Below are positions 22,029 through 58,914 of a stretch of 64,000 bases of DNA, in pieces. Source of the stretch: a virus; IMG/VR virus record IMGVR_UViG_3300013111_000325, positions 52,898-116,897 of that record; one strand, written 5' to 3'. A program made the position numbers and the translations under genes. Positions within the stretch are counted from its first letter, which is position 1. The number at the start of each line of letters is the position of its first letter. Under the pieces are notes generated by a model that did no database searches, had not been told where the DNA came from, and saw only the letters and a list, made by a program, of their open reading frames with translations.

Positions 22029-23492
22029 ATGAAATCATTTAAGTCTTATTTAGCAGAACGCAGAAGAGGTGGAGAAGAGAAGAATCCAAGGGTTTCTGCT
22101 ATTAAGGCACTAGAACCTTATAAGAATGATAAAGATGTTTTCATTACCTATACACAAATTGAAAAGGTAGGTGTCAATCCAGGATCCAGTTATAATACTC
22201 CAAACGGTATCTATACATATCCTCTCAAAGAAGCATGGGAAAAATATTATGTCCCAGGAAAAGGAACTCTTAATGTACCCTTTGCTGGTGATTCCAGTTG
22301 GGTAAATGCAATCAAGATAAAATCAGATGCAAAAGTTATTAGAGATATTGGAGTTTCTTATAGTTCAAAGGAATGGGATGAAGATGTTTTAAAACTAGCC
22401 AAGATTTTTATAGATCATCCTTTTTCCAAGAAAAATTGGGTCCCAATACTAACCATGTTGCAGGGTGTCAATCTGTATGACAAGGTAGAAAAAGATTTTG
22501 TCGGAGTGCGTAAAGATTGGTATTTTGAAAATAGAGAAAATGTAATTTGGAATCTATTTAAGGCTATTAAACAACATGCTATGTATTCCGCATATAGTCA
22601 GACAATCGGTGGACAGATGTGGAATTTGACAAGAGAACTTGCGACCATTATCAAATATACAGAAATGATTGAAATGGATGCTATTGATGGAAATTCAGGA
22701 ATGGACGAATTTGAAATTTCTATTCAAAGATTGGAAAAACCTTTAGATTTATCCGATCAAACAAGAATGTTTTGGTTTAGATTCCATTCTGGATTTAGAA
22801 AAACGGCACCAAATGTCTGGACAGATTTGTGGTTGAAGATGGGATATGGTGGAGTGATTGACCGTTCAGAGAATGGAATAATACACGAAGCAGAACCAAT
22901 ACAAGGTGTGTTCTTTACAACCAAGGCTTTTGATGTTTTGGGCAGGTTCATGAATAAAGGTTACGAGAGAGTGAATATGAAAGGTCTTTATATTTTGAGT
23001 GGTCTTCGTGTGGGTAAGGATGAACTTGTACACAAATTGAAGAATTTTTTACACAAAGATCAATACAAGTCCCTTTGTGCTATTATTATATTTCACAAAA
23101 TAAATCAAATATTGGCAAAGTTTTTAACAAGTATGGGTTCTTCAGGTGATGCTGATCAGATTAGTGCCCAGGCACCAAAATATGTTATTAAAAGGGCTAA
23201 TGATAAAAAGACATGGTTGAAAGTAGACCAATTTGATCCTTTTGTTCCAAATAGTACACGAACAGTAGTTGAATTTTTAGAAAACGAAATAAAAATCTAT
23301 CCTGATAATCATACTCCTTCAAATTCAGTAATGTTTAAATACGATAAAATAATTCCTCCTTTTGCACTAGAAAAAGATTTATCTTCAACTTTAAATAAAC
23401 AGTCTTATATAAAAATGGGAATGATGTTAGATAAATCGGTAACTACCTTATTGAGCAACATGATAGAAGATGTTTTAGGTATAAAAATATGA
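22029..23492 (+). CDS. probable capsid-internal protein, possible ADP-ribosyltransferase fold
   Basis: MKSFKSYLAE; TPNGIYTY and L..MGYGGVID….IIHEAEPIQGVFF. Confidence 0.5.
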   Translation: MKSFKSYLAERRRGGEEKNPRVSAIKALEPYKNDKDVFITYTQIEKVGVNPGSSYNTPNGIYTYPLKEAWEKYYVPGKGTLNVPFAGDSSWVNAIKIKSDAKVIRDIGVSYSSKEWDEDVLKLAKIFIDHPFSKKNWVPILTMLQGVNLYDKVEKDFVGVRKDWYFENRENVIWNLFKAIKQHAMYSAYSQTIGGQMWNLTRELATIIKYTEMIEMDAIDGNSGMDEFEISIQRLEKPLDLSDQTRMFWFRFHSGFRKTAPNVWTDLWLKMGYGGVIDRSENGIIHEAEPIQGVFFTTKAFDVLGRFMNKGYERVNMKGLYILSGLRVGKDELVHKLKNFLHKDQYKSLCAIIIFHKINQILAKFLTSMGSSGDADQISAQAPKYVIKRANDKKTWLKVDQFDPFVPNSTRTVVEFLENEIKIYPDNHTPSNSVMFKYDKIIPPFALEKDLSSTLNKQSYIKMGMMLDKSVTTLLSNMIEDVLGIKI

Positions 23493-25126
23493 TCAAATTT
23501 TCATCTTTTCTAACAGAGACCGCACAAAAAATTAACACAGTTCTATCTCCTGCATTAAGATCCGAAATAAAACAGAGAAATGGTAAAGTATATCAGATTG
23601 GTGGTGCAGTTCGTGATGAACTAATCGGTAAAATATCCAAAGATTTAGATTTACTTGTAACAGGCATAGAAACAGATGAATTGCAGGATATATTAAGCAA
23701 TCATGGCAAAGTGGATGCGGTTGGTAAATCATTCGGTATTCTAAAATTTCAACCAAAAGGGCAGACAGGCGAACCTCTTGATATATCAGTTCCCAGAGTT
23801 GATGTTCAAAGTACAGGAGGCGGCCATAAAGATTTTGAAGTAAAACTTGGTAAAGATATTTCTCTTGAACAAGATCAGTTACGCAGAGACTTCTGGATGA
23901 ATGCTATCGCCAAAGATATTGAAACTGGTGAGATGCATGATATTGAAGGTAAAGGGCAGTTTGATATAGAAAATAAGCAGATTAGCGTGATTAATCCTCA
24001 AGCATTTGATGATGATCCTTTGAGAATGTTGAGAGCAATTCAATTTGCTTCTCGTTTTGGTTTCAGCATAGAACCTGAAACTATGAAAGAGATCAAAAAG
24101 AATGCTGACAAAATTTCAACGATATCAGCAGAGAGATTTCAAGAAGAATTTCGTAAAATGTTTGAAAAATCTGATAATCCGAGTGTTGGTGTTCAATTGC
24201 TATTTGACACAGGTATTGCAAAACTTGTTATACCAAAACTCAAAGAAGTTGATAATTCTGTTGATAAGTTAGATAAAAAAGCATTCCCAGCGTTTCTTGC
24301 AATACTATTTAAAAATTATATGCATAATGCAGGTGAAATGGCCCAGAAAATATTTAAATTGTCTAATGCTGACAGAGTATCAGTTCAGTCTGTTATTGAT
24401 ATGGATAAAAATCTGAAAAATTTAAAAGATCCGATATTTATCGTTAGATTTATGCGAAATAAATCGGAGCAAGAAATAATGAATGTTGATGAATATCTGA
24501 AAACAAAAGGTACAAGAACTATATCAGATTTTGTTAATGAGATGAGAAGACGAAGAATACCCACAAATCTTAAAGAATTAGGTGTAAATGGTCGTGATAT
24601 GATGCGAGAAGGATTTAAAGGTGTTATGATCGGTGATGCTCTACAATGGATGCTTGAATTTGCAGTAAGAACAGGTAAGGCTGAAAAAGGTCTTTTAGTT
24701 CGTAAAGCAAAAGAACATTTTGGTATTAAAGAAACATTCTTTTATGAAGATGTGCAGGGATTTTATGCTTTGACCATAGATCCTAGATCAAAACTGGATA
24801 TTCAACAATATGCAAGTCATGAAATTGTTGTATCGGATCATGTTACTGTTGCATATAAACCAAGCGATCAAGTAGGTGAAATATTGAATTCTATGTTGGG
24901 CAGAACTTATAACATACAAGCACATACCTATATAAGTAATGATAGAATAGATGCGGCAATCGTAGATATACAGGGATTAAAAAGTGATAGAATTGCACAT
25001 ATTACAATATCTCACATAAAAGGCGCAATTCCTGCCGAATCTAATGATTTGATACAAAATTCGCAACATAAAGAAAAAATGAATATGAAATTAAGAGGAG
25101 TGCTAAATTTTTATGCACACACCTAA
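23489..25126 (+). CDS. cca: CCA-adding tRNA nucleotidyltransferase (class II) fused to a C-terminal 2H phosphoesterase
   Basis: GGAVRD, DLDL, RRDFWMNA, DDPLRMLRAIQFASR and ERFQEE; C-terminal HVTV and HITI. Confidence 0.85.
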   Translation: MIKFSSFLTETAQKINTVLSPALRSEIKQRNGKVYQIGGAVRDELIGKISKDLDLLVTGIETDELQDILSNHGKVDAVGKSFGILKFQPKGQTGEPLDISVPRVDVQSTGGGHKDFEVKLGKDISLEQDQLRRDFWMNAIAKDIETGEMHDIEGKGQFDIENKQISVINPQAFDDDPLRMLRAIQFASRFGFSIEPETMKEIKKNADKISTISAERFQEEFRKMFEKSDNPSVGVQLLFDTGIAKLVIPKLKEVDNSVDKLDKKAFPAFLAILFKNYMHNAGEMAQKIFKLSNADRVSVQSVIDMDKNLKNLKDPIFIVRFMRNKSEQEIMNVDEYLKTKGTRTISDFVNEMRRRRIPTNLKELGVNGRDMMREGFKGVMIGDALQWMLEFAVRTGKAEKGLLVRKAKEHFGIKETFFYEDVQGFYALTIDPRSKLDIQQYASHEIVVSDHVTVAYKPSDQVGEILNSMLGRTYNIQAHTYISNDRIDAAIVDIQGLKSDRIAHITISHIKGAIPAESNDLIQNSQHKEKMNMKLRGVLNFYAHT

Positions 25127-54226: not shown

Positions 54227-54309
54227 GGGGAGGCTGGGCATAGGTGAGCCCAACAGGCTGTAAACCTGCCGTATATACTGTGGCGGTTCGACTCCGTCTC
54301 TCCCCACCA
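54227..54309 (+). tRNA. tRNA-Tyr (GTA)
   Basis: GGGGAGG/TCTCCCC acceptor, CAGG-CTGTAAA-CCTG, GGTTCGACTCC and encoded CCA. Confidence 0.88.
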
Positions 54310-54311
54310 TG

Positions 54312-54389
54312 GGTCCCATCGTTCAGTCAGGTCTAGGACACGGCACTGTCACTGCCGAGACACGAGTTCAAATCTCGTTGGGACCGCCA
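54312..54389 (+). tRNA. tRNA-Asp (GTC)
   Basis: GGTCCCA/TGGGACC, CGGCA-CTGTCAC-TGCCG, GTTCAAATC and CCA. Confidence 0.92.
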
Positions 54390-55028
54390 ACAAAGTGATT
54401 ATGGATACTGAAGATTTGAAAGAAGAAAGACAAATGAGCAAGGCAGGAAGTCTTGCAATGGAATTGTCAAAAGAAAAAAAGCGGCTTCAAGAAGAACTTG
54501 AAGAAATGCAACAACAGTTTGAGGAGGTTTCTCCAAGTACACCAACGGGAGGACCAGATTCCTATTTCAAATGGATTGGAGTTGTATCAGCCGTCATAGG
54601 AATATTTTTACAGAATTCAAACTTACCTTTATTTGGACAATTTTTTTATGTGATTGGAGCATATTCTTGGACGGCAGTAGGATTTTATTGGAACGATAAA
54701 GCAGTTATGTTAGGAAGTGTTATTCCTGCTACAGTAGTGGCAATGAATTTAACTAAAGAACTGGTAAAGATTTTATAAGTATAACAGAACATTTATAAAG
54801 AAACTACTATGAAAAAAATGACAAAACACACATTAAAAGAACTAAAAAGATCATCTGTTAAGGTGGGGTTATTAATTTTAGTTCTACCATTTGGAATTAG
54901 TGCTTCTTTTAATTTCCTCCCACTTTGGTTGTCATTACCGATTGGGTTTATATTGGGTTTATCAGAGTTAATATTAATAGCAACCTTTGTGTTTATAGAG
55001 GTGGAGTTGCTGTATACAAAGGAAAAAA

Positions 55029-55199
55029 ATGAGTAGGGTCAGTTGTGGTGGAGAATGTCTTACTAATTTAGACCATAACTGTGTAGGTTGTGACAGAACA
55101 CCAACAGAAGAAGCGATGTGGGAACTTTATACATCAGAAGAGAGAGAGGAAATTGTAAAGGAGATACAGTCTTTTCTGGAAGAACAAAATGAAAATTAA
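55029..55199 (+). CDS. DUF1289-like small Cys protein (not in ORF track)
   Basis: C…C…CVGCDRT..E..MW. Confidence 0.6.
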   Translation: MSRVSCGGECLTNLDHNCVGCDRTPTEEAMWELYTSEEREEIVKEIQSFLEEQNEN

Positions 55200-55652
55200 T
55201 CACTTATAAAATTAAAAGGGATCAATAAAAAATGTCACCTACGTATAATTACCGATGCAATTATTGTAAGAAAGAGTGGGAAGAAGAAGTTCCTAATGAA
55301 GAACAAAAACTGCATCCAACACAAGTTTTGCAACCAGTTGAGTGTGACATTTTTGTTGCACCACATGCTGGTGTTGCAAAATGTGATGTGGAACTTGTTC
55401 TTAAAAAAACAAAATAAATACATGATTAAAGGATATTATGAAAAACATATTTAAATTTATGGGAGTATCAATACTCGGTACGTTTGGTTTATATTTAATT
55501 CAACCCTATGCACCTTTGGTTGTGGGTGTGGCCTGTTTGTTTTTTGCTTGGCAATTGTTTGTGTCCGCTCTTCCTGAGATTGAAGATTGGCGATATACAA
55601 TTCTTAAAGCAGAAGTAGAAAGCCTTAAAAGGTGGGTATACAAATTCTAAAC

Positions 55653-55727
55653 AGGTCATTGGTGTTAATGGTAGCATGTCGGACTCCAAATCCGAAGGTA
55701 CGGGTTCAAATCCTGTATGACCTGCCA
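55653..55727 (+). tRNA. tRNA-Trp (CCA)
   Basis: AGGTCAT/ATGACCT, TCGGA-CTCCAAA-TCCGA, GGTTCAAATCC and CCA. Confidence 0.93.
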
Positions 55728-55729
55728 AT

Positions 55730-55804
55730 GTGACCGTGACTGAATGGTGAGGTAACAGATTGCAAATCTGATTAATGCAGGTTCAAATCCTGTCGGTCAC
55801 TCCA
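55730..55804 (+). tRNA. tRNA-Cys (GCA)
   Basis: GTGACCG/CGGTCAC, CAGA-TTGCAAA-TCTG, GGTTCAAATCC, U discriminator and CCA. Confidence 0.92.
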
Positions 55805-56234
55805 TAAATATTTGAATGAACTATGATATTTTACTTCTAACTTTAACAATCGTATGTGCTTTAACAGTTGGTGCGTATGTATACAAAAAAGAAATTGATA
55901 CACCACCTCCGCCTAAACCAGATATACGATACTATCATATAAATTTTTAATTCATCTCCGGCCTATATAATAATGTAATGAATAATACAAGGAGATTTTA
56001 TGTTGAATACTATTAAGGTACACTGTAATGAAATAACAAAAGGACAGTGTATGGCACAATTGGATGGAGAAATTCAAGTTTGTGGTAAACATAATATATG
56101 TGCAGTGAATGAAATTAGATGGAATCTTCATGGAACTTCTAATGGAGAAGTTTTTGAAGAGGCCTTTAAACAAATTTGGGACATGGCCTATACAGAAGGT
56201 TTAGAGGATAGATCGTTTACATAAAAAAAATAAT

Positions 56235-56459
56235 ATGCCATTATACGAATATAAATGTGAAGTTTGCTCTAATATAGAAGAGAGTATTGAAAAAATAAAT
56301 ACAGAAAAAATAGAATGCCCTATTTGTAATAACACGGCAAAAAGAATTATTAGTTTATCTAGTTTTGAATTGAAAGGTAGTGGTTGGTATAAAGATGGTT
56401 ATTCATCAATTATTCCAAACAATACGGAAAAAAACAATACAGAAGACCAAACATCGTAA
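56235..56459 (+). CDS. FmdB-family zinc-ribbon protein
   Basis: MPLYEYKCEVC…CPIC…FELKGSGWYKDGY. Confidence 0.85.
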   Translation: MPLYEYKCEVCSNIEESIEKINTEKIECPICNNTAKRIISLSSFELKGSGWYKDGYSSIIPNNTEKNNTEDQTS

Positions 56460-56645
56460 TTATGTCAACTTCCGATCAAAAAGCATTTGAAGAATTTCTA
56501 AAAATCATGTTAGATGATGATCAAAGGTTTCCATGTACATATAAACCTAATAAAAGCAGTAAAGAATTTACTGAAGGTCTAGAAAAAATTCTTCAGGAAA
56601 AACAAATCGAAATAAATCGAAATAAAACGAAATAAGGAGAATATT

Positions 56646-57215
56646 ATGAAAGTTTCACTACGCAAAGCAAATGCACTTCAAGAACAACTTAACGAGGCGA
56701 TTAAAAGTCGTCCTAGTGCAGACCACGAGGTCAATGTTGTTGACCATGAAATGTGGAAGACTGAGGTAGAGAGTGCCCAGGCCAAATACTATGATGAAGT
56801 GAAGCGAAAACTTGAAATGGTTGAAACCAGGTTTTCTATTCGCAAGAGTATTGCCAACCATAATACCTTGTGTGGTGTTACCGATTTGCTTACGGATCTC
56901 AATCATGTTGAGAGTAAGATTACCACAATCCAGAGATGGATTATTCAAAGAGAAGTTCGTTCAAAAGACGAGGTTCTTGAAAAACAAAGAAACCGTAAAG
57001 TGGCTCGTGCCGAGAATGCAGATTACGATGGCTACATCTCCATGGATGTATCCGTCATCGGTAAGAACGACCATGAACACTGGACTGAAAAAGTTAAAGT
57101 GTTGAAGCGAAACAAAGCCAAAATCAACGATGAGTTATTGTCGTTGAACATCAAAACTGAAATAGAGTTATCACCGCAGGTGGTGAGGATTCTCAAACAA
57201 GAGAATTTGATCTGA
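56646..57215 (+). CDS. coiled-coil protein (DIP1984/DUF6847-like)
   Basis: MKVSLRKANALQ…I…N…DELLSLNIKTEIEL; strong AAGGAG RBS. Confidence 0.6.
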   Translation: MKVSLRKANALQEQLNEAIKSRPSADHEVNVVDHEMWKTEVESAQAKYYDEVKRKLEMVETRFSIRKSIANHNTLCGVTDLLTDLNHVESKITTIQRWIIQREVRSKDEVLEKQRNRKVARAENADYDGYISMDVSVIGKNDHEHWTEKVKVLKRNKAKINDELLSLNIKTEIELSPQVVRILKQENLI

Positions 57216-57225
57216 CTTGTGGTGC

Positions 57226-57469
57226 GGGAAGAGTGGGAGGTCCGATTACAACCACATGTAATCACTTGCCTTCTGGCATTTATCAAAAGCAATTACGGAG
57301 GAACTAGATGTTTGCTTCTGTTAAAAGAGGACCTTTTTGCTTGTTGTGAGGTGAAACCCACCATACCTTGTAGACAGAGAACGACATTAGGCATCAAACT
57401 TGCACTTTGTTCGTTGTAAGTTGCTTGAATGAACCGACTGGAACATTCGTTGTTTTTCTCATTCTTCCC
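57226..57469 (+). ncRNA. candidate structured RNA downstream of the coiled-coil gene
   Basis: 15-bp closing stem with G-U pairs, internal hairpins and TTG repeats every 7 nt. Confidence 0.55.
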
Positions 57470-58052
57470 ATTTACAAACCTCCCAAGTATGCTCACAATA
57501 TTCAGTATTTACATTAGGGTTAGTACACTTCCAAATTTCTATATCTGAAAAAATGTTAGTTTTTAGATTTCTTATACCTTCCAAATAAACATCTTGATTG
57601 ATTCCACACTTGAGTTTATATTCAAGACATATCATTTTTGATGTATCTTCTATTTGATTAAAATAATTAAAAATTTTCACAATCACTTTTTTTTCTATCT
57701 CTTCATCCCAGTCGCTATCTAAATCACTATATAATGTGATTTTGAGTTTTTGCTGGTTATTATTTAAAATTTTTGTAATAACCTTTTGTGCCATTCCAGT
57801 TATAAACGAACCTGCTTTAATATCTAAGGCAAAATAATTATCCCAAGTTATTGAATCAAATGATAAATATGGACCTGTTGAGGTTTGATGACAAGTATAC
57901 GTAAGTTCACCTGCAGGACCTACGGTAAGTTCATTTATTACATCAGATGTTAATTTAATATCTGGAAGTGCGTTCCATGGCGGAAAATAATTTCTGATGG
58001 CATCTTTAGGATTAAAATTGAATGTTTCAGAATAATAAACTTTTGTATCCAT
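57459..58052 (-). CDS. hypothetical protein, the only convincing minus-strand gene
   Basis: 197-aa ORF filling a gap that has no + strand ORF. Confidence 0.65.
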   Translation of the reverse strand: MDTKVYYSETFNFNPKDAIRNYFPPWNALPDIKLTSDVINELTVGPAGELTYTCHQTSTGPYLSFDSITWDNYFALDIKAGSFITGMAQKVITKILNNNQQKLKITLYSDLDSDWDEEIEKKVIVKIFNYFNQIEDTSKMICLEYKLKCGINQDVYLEGIRNLKTNIFSDIEIWKCTNPNVNTEYCEHTWEVCKWEE

Positions 58053-58071
58053 AAAAATATTTAGAAAAAAC

Positions 58072-58132
58072 TTGACATGTTCTCTTATTTTGCTATACTA
58101 ATAATGTAGTTAATGATTAACCCCTGCCGAGA
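58072..58132 (+). promoter_or_regulatory. repeated early promoter with leader
   Basis: TTGACA-16-TATACT…TGATTAACCCC. Confidence 0.85.
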
Positions 58133-58914
58133 ATGATTATGGCTATTAATGATAACTCAATATTCGTTGGTGATGCGGTGAGATTGTCGGGTAAAACTCG
58201 TCACGGTAAAAATCGTATTCGTGAGAATGGTGATATGTGGGAAGTCATCACTATTGATGGCGGTGAGAGTTCAATTCTCTCTACTAAAATTTGTGTCGTT
58301 CCTATGATGGAAGGTCGCAGAGAGAACTGGCGTTGGCTTGATCTTCCAGAAGATGAGCATATGGAAATTGAAATTATAGATAATGAGGTAGTATTATGAG
58401 TATGATAATGTGTAAGTATGGTTGTTTAAGTGATACTGATGAATTCCCAGAGTTTGAGTGGGATGAAGAAGAAGGTTATACGTGTGAATTTTGTGCAGAA
58501 GAAGAAAGAGATTCCTTGCGGATGTTCCGATACTTCCGCACCAGAGTAGATTCTTTTTTATATTCATAAAGGAAAAAATATGAGTGAGGAAAGACTAGAA
58601 CATTCAATTGCGTTGGTTCTTGCACGTTGGATGGGTGGTGAGAATTTGAAAGAAGCAACCGAAGAGGTTGCACGTATGGCTAGACTTTACTACGAAACTG
58701 GTTCAATAGAGGAGGACGAATTATGAGTGGAGTATTTGATTTGAAACTTATGGAAGGAGTTAGAGCAAAGGTTGCTGAGAAGAAGAGGAAACAAGCAGAA
58801 GAGTTTGCAGAACTTGTGAGTGGTCTAGACCCAGAGAGTATATTTTTTGCTGAACGGCTTTTTGGAGTAAACGGAAGCCGACTTGAAATAAATGGTAAAA
58901 AGTGAAAAACGTTC

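What the first reader, a model, noticed from the sequence alone, without database searches (positions are those of the whole stretch)
56646..57469. Coiled-coil gene followed by a closed ~245-nt RNA with TTG repeated at exact 7-nt spacing: candidate protein-RNA system
Seen: 11 nt after the stop codon, GGGAAGAGTGGGAGG (57226-57240) can pair over 15 bp with TTTCTCATTCTTCCC (57455-57469). The G-U pairs work only on the + strand. Inside are GATTACA/TGTAATC, an alternative GAGGTCC/GGACCTT helix, and TTG at 57400, 57407, 57414 and 57421. Inference: periodic single-stranded triplets suggest binding by an oligomeric protein (compare TRAP with its NAG repeats). The adjacent all-helical protein is a plausible partner, forming an RNP or an autoregulatory or toxin-antitoxin-like unit.
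Basis: partly seen in the sequence, partly recalled or inferred. Interest (0 to 1): 0.7.

Follow-up and report, generated by a model that had tools for sequence, protein, structure and literature searches.

The report
Phage RNA with phased UUG repeats
A roughly 250-base folded RNA carrying UUG triplets every seven bases sits next to one particular small helical protein gene in large phages, so the two probably form a previously undescribed RNA-protein particle of unknown function.

Summary
The closing stem, the GATTAC/GTAATC hairpin and four TTG at exact 7-nt spacing are at the stated coordinates. The phased pattern occurs once in 64 kb (0.02 expected). The + strand folds better than shuffles (z -3.6).

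The RNA is conserved after every orthologous gene, with compensatory changes. It is a divergent marine branch of a large RNA family absent from Rfam 15. That family lies on the same strand next to homologs of the 189-aa protein in 82 of 83 sequences. It is mostly inside phage tRNA arrays. Its invariant columns are almost only UG/UUG in three 7-nt-phased tracts.

Complete jumbo-phage genomes hold one gene and one RNA, side by side. Seawater RNA-library contigs cover just the RNA. The protein is helical, has no known family, and is predicted to form a homodimer.

Best reading: a new phage ribonucleoprotein whose protein docks on the phased UG triplets. Binding and function are inferred, not shown. 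The toxin-antitoxin and autoregulation readings are not supported. The module is also in Caulobacter phage CcrColossus, so it can be tested.

The parts
56646..57215 (+). Gene for the 189-aa all-helical protein. Its family includes phrog_25230, of unknown function.
   Evidence: ORF. 85 homologs of 182-232 aa. 2005 cluster representatives at E<=1e-3. AF2 pLDDT 91, helices plus two short strands. No Pfam, NCBIfam or PADLOC family. Homodimer supported by the model, 0.66 against control 0.17.
57210..57473 (+). Approximate extent of the non-coding RNA (heptad-UG RNA, marine subgroup A).
   Evidence: Covariance model R1 match at 57222-57477. RNA-library contigs at 57176-57435, 57184-57469 and 57211-57451. 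One contig starts at 57210 with an adapter-like loose end. Contigs cannot fix the ends exactly.
57226..57239 (+). P1 closing stem, 5' strand. It pairs with 57456-57469.
   Evidence: 14 consensus pairs, 3 with changes on both sides, 99% of cells paired.
57456..57469 (+). P1 closing stem, 3' strand. Most relatives have A plus a run of T after it.
   Evidence: 10 of the 16 group-A copies that reach the 3' end read ATTTTTT after the stem. Another 3 of the 16 are T-rich there.
57244..57263 (+). P2 hairpin (GATTAC / GTAATC).
   Evidence: 6 pairs, 100% paired, A-U to C-G exchange in 3 of 7.
57267..57278 (+). P3 hairpin (TGCC / GGCA).
   Evidence: 4 pairs. One pair has three pair types: C-G, G-C and A-U.
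57307..57395 (+). P4 long hairpin. Its helices are 57307-57314/57388-57395, 57316-57322/57373-57379 and 57327-57330/57366-57369. Its apical part carries two TTG 7 nt apart (57337 and 57344).
   Evidence: It is the counterpart of the covarying hairpin of the wider family, whose apical loop holds UUG cluster 1.
57400..57427 (+). Phased tract. TTG at 57400, 57407, 57414 and 57421 (7-nt period) and at 57425.
   Evidence: TG is invariant at the four phased sites in 17 of 17 group-A copies while the spacers vary. Family model R2 aligns it to the family's cluster 2. No conserved pairing partner was found.
57427..57448 (+). P5 hairpin (GAATGAACC / GGAACATTC).
   Evidence: 7 consensus pairs, 2 with changes on both sides.
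57459..58052 (-). 197-aa ORF of very low G+C. It is inserted between the RNA and the next gene, is not part of the module, and overlaps the last 11 nt of P1.
   Evidence: Absent at this place in L001 and L002. A contig joins 57473 directly to 58089. No family in Pfam, PHROGs, PADLOC or NCBIfam.
54227..55804 (+). Four tRNA genes upstream on the same strand (Tyr and Asp at 54227-54389, Trp and Cys at 55653-55804). This is the tRNA-array context.
   Evidence: ARAGORN and Rfam.

Best explanation
SHOWN. 57210-57473 (+) encodes a real, conserved, structured non-coding RNA. It has a long closing stem, five or so internal helices, and UG/UUG triplets held at a 7-nt period in tracts with no conserved pairing partner. 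It is a divergent marine branch of a large, previously uncatalogued phage RNA family. That family is genetically locked to one protein family, the 184-193-aa helical protein encoded here at 56646-57215. Gene and RNA are on the same strand, almost always within a few hundred bases, and single-copy per genome. They usually lie inside tRNA gene arrays of large (roughly 100-360 kb) phages. In the window's relatives the RNA is present in seawater RNA libraries as a separate short contig.

INFERRED. The RNA is made from the same transcript as the gene or tRNA array and cut out near 57210. It ends at the 3' strand of the closing stem, which in relatives is followed by a U run. It then assembles with several copies of the adjacent protein. 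The protein is predicted to be a symmetric homodimer. Its most conserved N- and C-terminal segments lie outside the predicted dimer interface. I propose that these segments read successive phased UG triplets, which number 2 + 4 + 2 in the main family. This would resemble the way TRAP and HutP read phased triplets, but with an unrelated fold and with the RNA as a stable scaffold rather than an mRNA leader.

Further inference. The neighbouring genes are tRNAs, tmRNA, GOLLD RNA, peptidyl-tRNA hydrolase and sometimes an RNA-polymerase omega homolog. The particle therefore most likely acts on RNA, tRNA or translation-linked processes during host takeover. What it does there is unknown.
For: RNA is real:
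- z -3.63 on the + strand.
- Group A covariation: 50 pairs, 97.7% paired against 45-54% for slid partners.
- Main family of 43 sequences: 30 pairs, 94.9% paired against 33-51% slid, 26 pairs with changes on both sides, 0 of 500 shuffles reach any measure.

Phased UG:
- In group A, TG is invariant at the four phased sites in 17 of 17 copies.
- In the 43-sequence alignment the invariant columns are almost only TG/TTG, in three tracts 7 nt apart.
- The strict 4x pattern is on the + strand in 30 of 82 loci and never on the - strand.
- CcrColossus has six TTG at 7-nt spacing, and Brevundimonas phage Kikimora has five (C/G)TGTG at 7 nt.
- No conserved partner helix for the tracts.

Linkage:
- The RNA is found in 82 of 83 sequences fetched by protein homology. 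The one miss, L051, is cut 247 nt after the gene.
- Of 66 distinct RNAs, 33 lie <=120 nt downstream, 16 lie <=120 nt upstream, 10 lie 147-467 nt downstream, and 7 lie 229-290 nt upstream. All are on the gene's strand.
- 10 of 10 metagenome loci with a downstream flank have it.
- From the RNA side, 17 of 19 stretches hold the gene, and the other 2 are cut at the locus end.
- In the three whole genomes of 280-357 kb where R2 scores, its only hit abuts the only protein gene.

Group A belongs to the family:
- R1 hits L085, L050 and L073 full-length at E 3.5e-4 to 1.5e-3.
- R2 hits L002 full-length at E 0.03.
- R2's best hit in 4 kb of the window is the heptad tract, in register, at E 0.028.

Expression:
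- Contigs of three RNA libraries from three studies cover 57176-57469.
- In two of them nothing else of the 1.9 kb that was laid is covered.

Protein:
- Homodimer score 0.66 against best control 0.17. The runs agree in at least 87% of contacts and the partner pLDDT is at least 86. The mark was reached by 20 of 30 proteins solved as pairs of one chain and by 1 of 23 solved as single chains.
- The interface is residues 19-142.
- The invariant residues M1, L5, R6, K7, A8, N9, Q12, D162, L165, N168 and L183 lie outside the named interface residues.
Against: - No binding data of any kind. Gene neighbourhood alone does not prove a complex.
- The protein has no recognisable RNA-binding fold. The best structural match is 3kdq, of unknown function, at Z 10.5 and rmsd 7.5 A, which is within the noise for helical proteins.
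- The tracts are called single-stranded only because no conserved partner was found. Single-sequence thermodynamics gives them only middling unpaired probabilities of about 0.2-0.6.
- The period is not universal. Yersinia phage fHe-Yen9-04 has five TTG at 8-nt spacing, and R2 does not score that copy or the Kikimora copy.
- Group A joins the main family only through weak model scores plus synteny. Its inner closing-stem segment differs from the main family's AUAGAC/GUCUAU helix.
- Contigs cannot give true RNA ends or abundance.
- The dimer prediction used my own alignment, so its calibration holds only roughly.
Confidence: 0.55

Rival explanations
1. Sponge or decoy RNA. The phased UG/UUG triplets titrate a host factor rather than the neighbouring protein. 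The host factor could be an RNA-binding protein, a ribonuclease, or a tRNA-targeting defence enzyme. The neighbouring protein would then help in another way, for example processing, stabilising or delivery. CsrB/RsmZ sponges with repeated GGA are the model.
For: There are many repeats of a short invariant motif in unpaired tracts. The RNA appears as a separate species in RNA libraries. It sits in tRNA arrays. I recall that such arrays are thought to offset host attacks on tRNA. That point comes from memory and not from a call.
Against: The strict one-to-one, single-copy coupling with one protein family across very distant phages is more than a host-directed sponge would need. No host factor with UUG-heptad specificity is known to me. 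Nothing here identifies a host target.
Confidence: 0.17
2. RNA-only assembly. Like GOLLD and ROOL, which lie in the same kind of phage tRNA arrays, the RNA multimerises by itself. The phased UG tracts would be intermolecular contact sites, and the protein would be an accessory.
For: GOLLD (RF02032) lies within 2.5 kb in 6 locus types: L085, L027, L026, L050, L031 and L076. GOLLD, ROOL and OLE form homo-oligomeric RNA complexes (abstract of PMC12286853, seen in the listing). The tracts have no intramolecular partner.
Against: At about 250 nt it is far smaller than those RNAs. Rfam models give no similarity. No self-complementary motif stands out. This reading leaves the coupling to the protein unexplained.
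Confidence: 0.1
3. Cis-acting regulatory element of the protein's own mRNA. It would be an autoregulatory leader or 3' UTR.
For: It is always on the same strand and usually immediately adjacent. In 16 of 66 cases it ends 34-85 nt before the start codon, like a leader.
Against: In 33 of 66 cases it follows the stop codon. In 17 of 66 it lies 147-467 nt away, with another ORF or a tRNA gene in between in many of these loci. In L007 and L008 tRNA genes follow it directly. RNA-library contigs cover it without the coding region. About 250 nt with 30-50 covarying pairs is large for an autoregulatory site.
Confidence: 0.08
4. A diverged copy of a known RNA type: Y RNA with Ro60, 6S RNA, tmRNA, RNase P RNA, or the T4 species 1/2 RNAs.
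For: The closing stem has a conserved internal loop, which loosely recalls Y RNA. That resemblance is recalled and not tested by a model. An RNA-polymerase omega homolog (PF01192) lies next to the pair in 10 locus types. The RNA sits in a tRNA array, like T4 rnaC and rnaD.
Against: No Rfam family reaches E<=10 on the window RNA or E<=0.05 on eight relatives. ARAGORN finds no tmRNA here, and true tmRNAs lie elsewhere in some of the same loci. TROVE/Ro60 is absent from 3 of 5 whole genomes that carry the pair. Where it is present it lies more than 75 kb away. Omega is absent from 5 of 5 whole genomes and from this record. R2 does not match T4 rnaC or rnaD.
Confidence: 0.04
5. Type III toxin-antitoxin-like pair, with the protein as toxin and the RNA as antitoxin.
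For: A protein gene lies beside a repeat-bearing RNA.
Against: The repeats are 3-nt motifs inside a single closed fold. They are not tandem units of about 36 nt. The protein matches no toxin or defence family. The only hits are weak coiled-coil matches of relatives to ZorA, at 18.9 bits against a cut-off of 750. The pair is confined to viral contigs. Only 2 small MAG contigs hold it among the genomes of 185,579 species.
Confidence: 0.02

Closest known systems
Phage T4 species 1 and species 2 RNAs (rnaC, rnaD)
   Same: They are small stable RNAs of unknown function, encoded on the tRNA strand at the edge of a phage tRNA gene cluster (annotation). They are presumably released by processing of the array transcript. 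That last point is recalled, not from a call.
   Different: They are 139 and 119 nt, have no phased UUG, and get no match to model R2. No homolog of the 189-aa protein was found in T4-like records. tblastn of two family members against 50,697 phage records found only Yersinia, Brevundimonas and Caulobacter jumbo phages.
GOLLD and ROOL large ornate RNAs
   Same: They are structured, covarying non-coding RNAs of phages and prophages that sit in tRNA arrays. GOLLD occurs in the very same arrays as this RNA. Their function is also unknown.
   Different: They are several times larger. They form RNA-only multimers (abstract of PMC12286853 in the listing). No dedicated protein gene is known for them, as far as I recall. 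No similarity is seen by Rfam models.
TRAP-trp leader RNA and HutP-hut mRNA (phased triplet recognition)
   Same: Short triplets repeat at a fixed short period in unpaired RNA. From memory, HutP reads UAG with 4-nt spacers, which is also a 7-nt period, and TRAP reads G/UAG with 2-3-nt spacers. Each triplet is read by one subunit of a symmetric oligomer.
   Different: Those RNAs are mRNA leaders that control attenuation, not stable closed RNAs. Their proteins are beta-rich rings or alpha/beta hexamers. This protein is all-helical, predicted to be dimeric, and in no Pfam family. The triplet here is UUG/UG.
CsrB/RsmZ-type sponge RNAs
   Same: A stable non-coding RNA displays many copies of a short motif in loops and linkers.
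   Different: Their motif is GGA and their partner is the host regulator CsrA/RsmA. There is no strict phasing and no adjacent dedicated protein gene. These points are recalled, not from a call.
Ro60-Y RNA particles, including phage-encoded ones
   Same: The RNA is closed by pairing of its 5' and 3' ends, with a conserved internal loop in that stem. The partner protein is encoded next to the RNA. Phage versions exist (passages of PMC12135203 read, which names CcrColossus among phages reported to encode Ro60 homologs and Y-like RNAs).
   Different: There is no TROVE gene beside it. TROVE is absent from 3 of 5 whole genomes that carry the pair. In CcrColossus it lies at 107.6-108.4 kb while this RNA is at 201.3 kb. 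No Rfam Y RNA match was found.

Membership tests
Any Rfam 15 family (4227 models) | Covariance-model match at the family's gathering score, or at least a suggestive E-value. | tested here: not met
   The window at gathering score gives only 4 tRNAs. 56400-58200 at E<=10 gives nothing on 57210-57473. 20 related loci at gathering score and 8 at E<=0.05 give nothing on the RNA.
tmRNA | tRNA-like domain plus a tag reading frame, detected by ARAGORN or Rfam. | tested here: not met
   No tmRNA in the window. Genuine tmRNAs were detected elsewhere in L056, L068, L069 and L085, so detection works in these phages.
Y RNA / Ro60 RNP | A Ro60 (TROVE, PF05731) gene in the genome, normally adjacent to the RNA. 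| tested here: not met
   TROVE was found in 2 of 5 whole genomes that carry the pair, and there it lies more than 75 kb away. It is absent from G001, G002 and Yersinia phage fHe-Yen9-04. It was not found in this record, which is 52% complete.
6S RNA | Rfam 6S models. Binding of RNA polymerase holoenzyme. | tested here: not met
   No 6S model match. Polymerase binding cannot be tested here. The omega-homolog neighbour seen in 10 locus types is absent from 5 of 5 whole genomes.
GOLLD RNA (RF02032) | Match to RF02032. | tested here: not met
   RF02032 matches other places in L085, L027, L026, L050, L031 and L076 at 192-222 bits. It never matches this RNA.
T4 rnaC / rnaD | Sequence and structure similarity to the T4 RNAs. 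| tested here: not met
   R2 with filters off over T4 68000-75000 gives no match on 70908-71171. There are no phased TTG in that sequence.
Heptad-UG RNA family defined here (models R1, R2) | A closing stem of the 5' and 3' ends. A long covarying hairpin with two phased UUG in its apical part. A tract of four or more UG at a 7-nt period. Position beside the protein gene on the same strand. | tested here: met
   All four features are present in the window. R1 reaches main-family members at E 3.5e-4 to 1.5e-3. R2 reaches L002 at E 0.03 and the window's tract at E 0.028. The model scores are weak, so membership rests largely on shared architecture and synteny.
phrog_25230 (protein) | Full-length profile match. 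| tested here: met
   E 5.4e-5, residues 1-185 on profile positions 1-188 of 192. The function of this PHROG is unknown.
TRAP / HutP type RNA-binding attenuation proteins | Protein fold and family. Phased triplets in the RNA. | tested here: not met
   RNA side met: UUG at a 7-nt period. Protein side not met: all-helical model and no Pfam family in 45 of 45 members at meaningful E. It may work like these systems, but it is not a member.
Type III toxin-antitoxin (ToxIN-like) | A tandem-repeat antitoxin RNA upstream of an endoribonuclease toxin gene. | tested here: not met
   The RNA is one closed fold without tandem units. No PADLOC, Pfam or NCBIfam toxin match.

The most novel reading that the evidence does not exclude
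This is a new class of phage ribonucleoprotein. A closed RNA of about 250 nt serves as a scaffold. It presents eight or so UG triplets at a fixed 7-nt period to several copies of a dedicated, structurally novel dimeric protein. The pair has been kept together, in single copy, in thousands of lineages of large phages. They sit inside the tRNA arrays, and the particle would manipulate host or phage RNA, tRNA or translation during infection.
Probability: 0.4. Interest if true: 0.9.

Novelty: new variant of a known kind. Interest (0 to 1): 0.82.

Why it matters
Large phages carry tRNA arrays that also hold enigmatic structured RNAs. T4 species 1 and 2 RNAs and GOLLD are examples, and as far as I recall their functions remain unknown after decades.

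This RNA is a further inhabitant of those arrays that no catalogue holds (Rfam 15). Unlike the others, it comes with a built-in lead: one protein family that is always encoded beside it. It also carries an unusually explicit sequence signature, invariant UG at a 7-nt period, which suggests how the two might fit together.

The protein family is large, with 2005 cluster representatives at 50% identity, and has no annotation. Assigning it an RNA partner would give a first functional handle on it.

The pair is present in cultured phages of a tractable, harmless host, Caulobacter phage CcrColossus (gp272 plus the unannotated 284-nt gap after it). The hypothesis can therefore be tested directly with binding assays, CLIP, deletion and cryo-EM.

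Tried and rejected
- blastn of 56200-58200 against 50,697 phage records found nothing.
- Fold searches of the AF2 model gave no informative result. Foldseek on PDB had no hit at E<=0.001. VIA-align's top hit was 3kdq (unknown function, Z 10.5, rmsd 7.5 A). The rest were generic helical hairpins.
- A profile search of PDB sequences gave only DNA polymerase beta's N-terminal domain at E 0.1-0.7, which is not significant.
- The ESM Atlas returned only viral hypothetical clusters.
- PADLOC and NCBIfam gave weak coiled-coil hits of one relative to the ZorA tail, far below cut-off. I dismissed them.
- A resemblance to the P4 helix of RNase P RNA occurred to me. I dropped it because the AUAGAC/GUCUAU pairing is a nested continuation of the closing stem and no RNase P model matches.
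- I looked for a possible pseudoknot between the fourth UUG and an upstream GCAA. No conserved partner for the tracts was found in the diverse alignment.
- R2 does not detect the copies in Yersinia phage fHe-Yen9-04 or in Kikimora. I recognised these by eye from the gap, the closing stem and the phased repeats.
- Promoter and terminator scans gave nothing at the RNA itself.
- Parts of the laid 1.9 kb without contig cover in the RNA libraries are not evidence of absence.
- Literature searches found no description of this RNA or protein. The term sets were: GOLLD/tRNA/phage/noncoding RNA; tRNA arrays/bacteriophage/structured RNA/ROOL; freshwater-2/RNA motif; jumbo phage/noncoding RNA/tRNA/covariation; and CcrColossus/noncoding RNA. 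Papers outside the held library, and supplementary files, were not seen.
Full report
1. WHAT IS AT THE COORDINATES

The window is part of a 116.9-kb viral record estimated to be 52% complete. It has low G+C and encodes a DNA primase, a ribonucleotide reductase and a tRNA nucleotidyltransferase. It has four tRNA genes on the + strand at 54227-54389 and 55653-55804.

The 189-aa ORF runs from 56646 to 57215.

The phased pattern TTGN4TTGN4TTGN4TTG occurs once in the 64 kb on either strand. 0.02 are expected, and 2 of 100 shuffles have one or more.

The 265 nt after the stop codon fold to -80.0 kcal/mol on the + strand (z -3.63, 0 of 200 shuffles as good). On the - strand they fold to -67.7 (z -2.01). 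G+C is 0.40-0.43 over the gene and RNA against about 0.25-0.33 around them.

2. THE RNA IS CONSERVED WITH COVARIATION IN THE CLOSE RELATIVES

Two IMG/VR contigs with orthologs at 81% and 68% identity carry the same element straight after the stop codon. A promoter-like sequence and the ortholog of the window's 88-aa gene (58133) follow it. Four more contigs with orthologs at 56-61% identity also carry it. In L007 and L008 tRNA genes follow it directly.

An alignment of seven copies gives a consensus of 50 pairs, 12 of them with changes on both sides. 97.7% of cells are paired, against 45-54% when the 3' partners are slid by 1-3 columns. 0 of 500 shuffles reach the covariation score.

In window coordinates:
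- P1: 57226-57239 with 57456-57469
- P2: 57244-57249 with 57258-57263
- P3: 57267-57270 with 57275-57278
- P4: three segments between 57307 and 57395
- P5: 57427-57435 with 57440-57448

A metagenome scan added 15 loci. All 10 that include a downstream flank have the RNA. In the resulting 17-row alignment, TG is invariant at each of the four phased sites while the 4-nt spacers differ. Of the 16 rows that reach the 3' end, 10 read ATTTTTT after the closing stem and another 3 are T-rich there.

In the window that run is cut short by a 197-aa ORF on the minus strand (57459-58052). The ORF has very low G+C and no family match. L001 and L002 lack it, and so does a contig that joins 57473 to 58089.

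3. THE PROTEIN FAMILY AND ITS SETTING

The protein has 85 homologs of 182-232 aa in the word-indexed search. 372 IMG/VR stretches encode a relative. There are 2005 representatives of 50%-identity clusters at E<=1e-3, of which 1298 are at <=1e-10. Among the best 150 listed, all but four are 184-194 aa.

The protein matches phrog_25230, of unknown function, at E 5.4e-5. It matches nothing in Pfam, NCBIfam or PADLOC. The N terminus (M-K-x-S/T-L-R-K-A-N-A-x-Q) and a C-terminal block are the most conserved parts.

The AF2 model has pLDDT 91 and is helical, with two short strands that bring the N and C termini together. Fold searches give nothing informative.

Copies of the chain are predicted to form a symmetric dimer. 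The score is 0.66 against a best control of 0.17. The runs agree in at least 87% of contacts, and the partner pLDDT is at least 86. The mark was reached by 20 of 30 proteins solved as pairs of one chain and by 1 of 23 solved as single chains. The calibration holds only roughly because my own alignment was used. The interface covers residues 19-142, so the conserved termini are free.

In 71 of 82 related loci at least one tRNA gene lies within 2.5 kb, always on the gene's strand, and often there are ten to twenty of them. GOLLD RNA, tmRNA, a PTH2 peptidyl-tRNA hydrolase and an RNase H-like gene are among the neighbours.

The family is essentially viral. A scan of one genome for each of 185,579 prokaryote species gave two small MAG contigs only.

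Cultured carriers are Yersinia phage fHe-Yen9-04, Brevundimonas jumbo phages and Caulobacter phage CcrColossus. In all of them the gene is annotated as hypothetical and is followed by an unannotated gap of 284-300 nt.

4. THE RNA IS ONE BRANCH OF A LARGE FAMILY THAT TRAVELS WITH THE PROTEIN

Distant loci with 26-34% protein identity often showed an ORF-free 250-350 nt next to the gene. The covariance model of the marine group (R1) hit three of them full-length at E 3.5e-4 to 1.5e-3. The alignments showed the same phased UUG tract.

The strict 4x pattern is on the + strand in 30 of 82 loci (41 overlapping matches) and never on the - strand, in 425 kb.

Iterated nhmmer from four seeds finds the RNA in 82 of 83 sequences. 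The exception, L051, ends 247 nt after the gene, and its twin L050 has the RNA at +451.

Among 66 distinct RNAs, all on the gene's strand:
- 33 start <=120 nt after the stop codon
- 16 end <=120 nt before the start codon
- 10 lie 147-467 nt downstream
- 7 lie 229-290 nt upstream

In seven distinct locus types (L010, L011, L023, L056, L057, L080, L082) the intervening ORF is a homolog of RNA-polymerase omega (PF01192). Pfam confirmed four of them, and a profile of the six first seen found the rest.

Searching from the RNA side with a 3'-end motif returned 19 stretches. 17 hold the gene on the same strand. In the other two the expected place lies beyond the locus end.

Each of five whole genomes of 280-357 kb has exactly one protein gene. 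In three of them (G001, G002, CcrColossus) the only R2 hit lies right next to it.

5. ARCHITECTURE OF THE FAMILY

A 43-sequence alignment of the main groups has 46% mean column identity. Its consensus has 30 pairs, 26 of them with changes on both sides. 94.9% of cells are paired, against 33-51% for slid partners. 0 of 500 shuffles reach any of the five measures.

The elements, in order, are:
- an optional 5' hairpin
- a purine-rich/pyrimidine-rich closing stem
- a conserved asymmetric internal loop
- an inner stem (AUAGAC/GUCUAU in many)
- variable hairpins
- a long hairpin
- a variable hairpin
- the return strands

The invariant columns are almost exclusively TG or TTG, and they fall into three tracts. 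Two are 7 nt apart in the apical part of the long hairpin. Four are 7 nt apart after it. Two are 7 nt apart just before the 3' strand of the inner stem.

No conserved helix involving these tracts was found. Single-sequence thermodynamics leaves them only partly open.

The window's RNA has:
- the closing stem
- the long hairpin with two TTG 7 nt apart (57337, 57344)
- the four-fold tract
- a hairpin
- one further TTG (57450)

Its inner closing segment differs from the main family's.

Model R2, built from the main groups, detects another group (group C) at E 3e-6 to 0.06 and L038 at 6.6e-9. It detects L002 of the marine group full-length at E 0.03. Its best hit in 4 kb of the window with filters off is the tract 57400-57459, in register, at E 0.028. 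So the marine group's membership rests on weak reciprocal scores plus shared architecture and synteny.

The period is kept in CcrColossus (six TTG at 7 nt in a 55% G+C context) and in Kikimora (five (C/G)TGTG at 7 nt). In the Yersinia phage it is 8 nt.

6. EXPRESSION

Twenty public runs hold part of the 835-nt query. Most hold shares of 0.06-0.32 of the sampled words, which is about what the RNA alone would give.

Contigs of four runs from four studies were laid on 56300-58200:
- RNA library X2 has one contig, 57176-57435, identical to the window, depth 27.
- RNA library X4 has one contig, 57184-57469.
- RNA library X17 has 57211-57451 (depth 5.4) and a coding piece 56808-56963 (depth 2.6).
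- X1 is probably DNA. It has 57210-57473 joined to 58089-58152, with a loose end before 57210 that I recognise from memory as adapter sequence.

Contigs cannot give true ends, strand or level. Still, three RNA libraries assembling just this piece is what a stable, abundant RNA would give.

No promoter-like or simple terminator-like site flanks the RNA. Co-transcription with the gene or array followed by processing is therefore the simplest reading. This is an inference.

7. WHAT IT IS NOT

No Rfam 15 family matches the RNA. It is not a tmRNA. It is not GOLLD, which lies elsewhere in the same loci.

It is not a Y RNA in the defining sense. TROVE is absent from three whole genomes that carry the pair and lies more than 75 kb away in the two that have it. 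A paper on a phage Ro60 names CcrColossus among phages reported to carry Ro60 homologs and Y-like RNAs (passages read).

It is not tied to omega, which is absent from 5 of 5 whole genomes and from this record. It is not like T4 rnaC or rnaD.

The literature searches listed under Tried and rejected found no description of it.

8. MECHANISM

The tight, single-copy, strand-consistent but position-flexible coupling argues for a trans-acting pair and against a cis element. Invariant triplets at a fixed period, with free spacers and no RNA partner, are what a repeated protein contact would leave. The protein is predicted to be a symmetric dimer with its conserved residues at the free ends.

I therefore favour an RNP in which protein units dock on the phased UG triplets (confidence 0.55). 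The rivals, in order, are a host-directed sponge, an RNA-only assembly, a cis-regulatory element, a diverged known RNA, and a toxin-antitoxin pair.

The biological role is open. The setting points to tRNA, translation or RNA turnover.

9. VERDICT

The feature is a new RNA family with a new protein partner, widespread in large phages and testable in a cultured system.

Noticed in passing
window 57459-58052 (-): A 197-aa ORF with G+C about 0.25-0.30 and no family match sits between the RNA and the next gene's promoter. It overlaps the last 11 nt of the closing stem. L001 and L002 lack it, and so does a contig that joins 57473 to 58089. L115 and L119 seem to share the window's junction. It looks like a recently inserted mobile or moron gene.
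   Followed up: partly
L022:3075-3410, L044:2423-2755, L079:1023-1364, L018:1984-2317, and parts in L026, L027, L057 and L015: A second conserved ORF-free element of about 210-330 nt lies directly after the protein gene in these loci, usually before a tRNA-Met gene. The heptad-UG RNA lies elsewhere in the same loci. There is no Rfam match at E<=1. It may be another uncatalogued RNA of these tRNA arrays.
   Followed up: partly
L010:2301-2501, L011:2251-2538, L023, L056:2256-2471, L057, L080, L082:2248-2514; also L019, L022 and L077 further off: Phage-encoded homologs of RNA-polymerase omega (PF01192, E 1e-9 to 3e-15) lie between the RNA and the protein gene in seven locus types and nearby in three more. 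They are absent from five whole genomes that carry the pair.
   Followed up: partly
L085:482-943, L027:617-1081, L026:390-851, L050:4591-5054, L031:4152-4620, L076:688-1149; L085:4920-5274; L032:3400-3470, L072:3538-3608: GOLLD RNAs (192-222 bits), a tmRNA and the freshwater-2 motif lie in the same tRNA arrays, within 2.5 kb of the protein gene. freshwater-2 follows the heptad-UG RNA by roughly 70-80 nt in two loci.
   Followed up: no
L086:3770-3810 (Yersinia phage fHe-Yen9-04, after g381): The repeat period here is 8 nt, not 7, with five TTG. Model R2 does not score this copy. If the protein reads the repeats, its spacing should differ in this lineage.
   Followed up: no
window 23489-25126 (+): A tRNA nucleotidyltransferase (CCA-adding enzyme) homolog, phrog_2244 at E 1.5e-59. 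In several RNA subgroups the closing stem is followed by ACC, as seen in the sequences printed. This made me wonder about 3'-end tailing. I did not test it, and the window's own copy does not end that way.
   Followed up: no
L122 and L123 (MAG contigs labelled Alteromonadales and Glaciecola): These are the only two hits for the protein in the prokaryote genome collection. They are 11-kb and 4-kb contigs that also carry the RNA. They are probably phage DNA binned into MAGs, so they give at most a weak hint of host range.
   Followed up: no
L002:3083-3652: There is a second ORF of exactly 189 aa 1.4 kb downstream of the ortholog. It is unrelated in sequence (BLASTP E 0.5), so the equal length is a coincidence.
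   Followed up: yes
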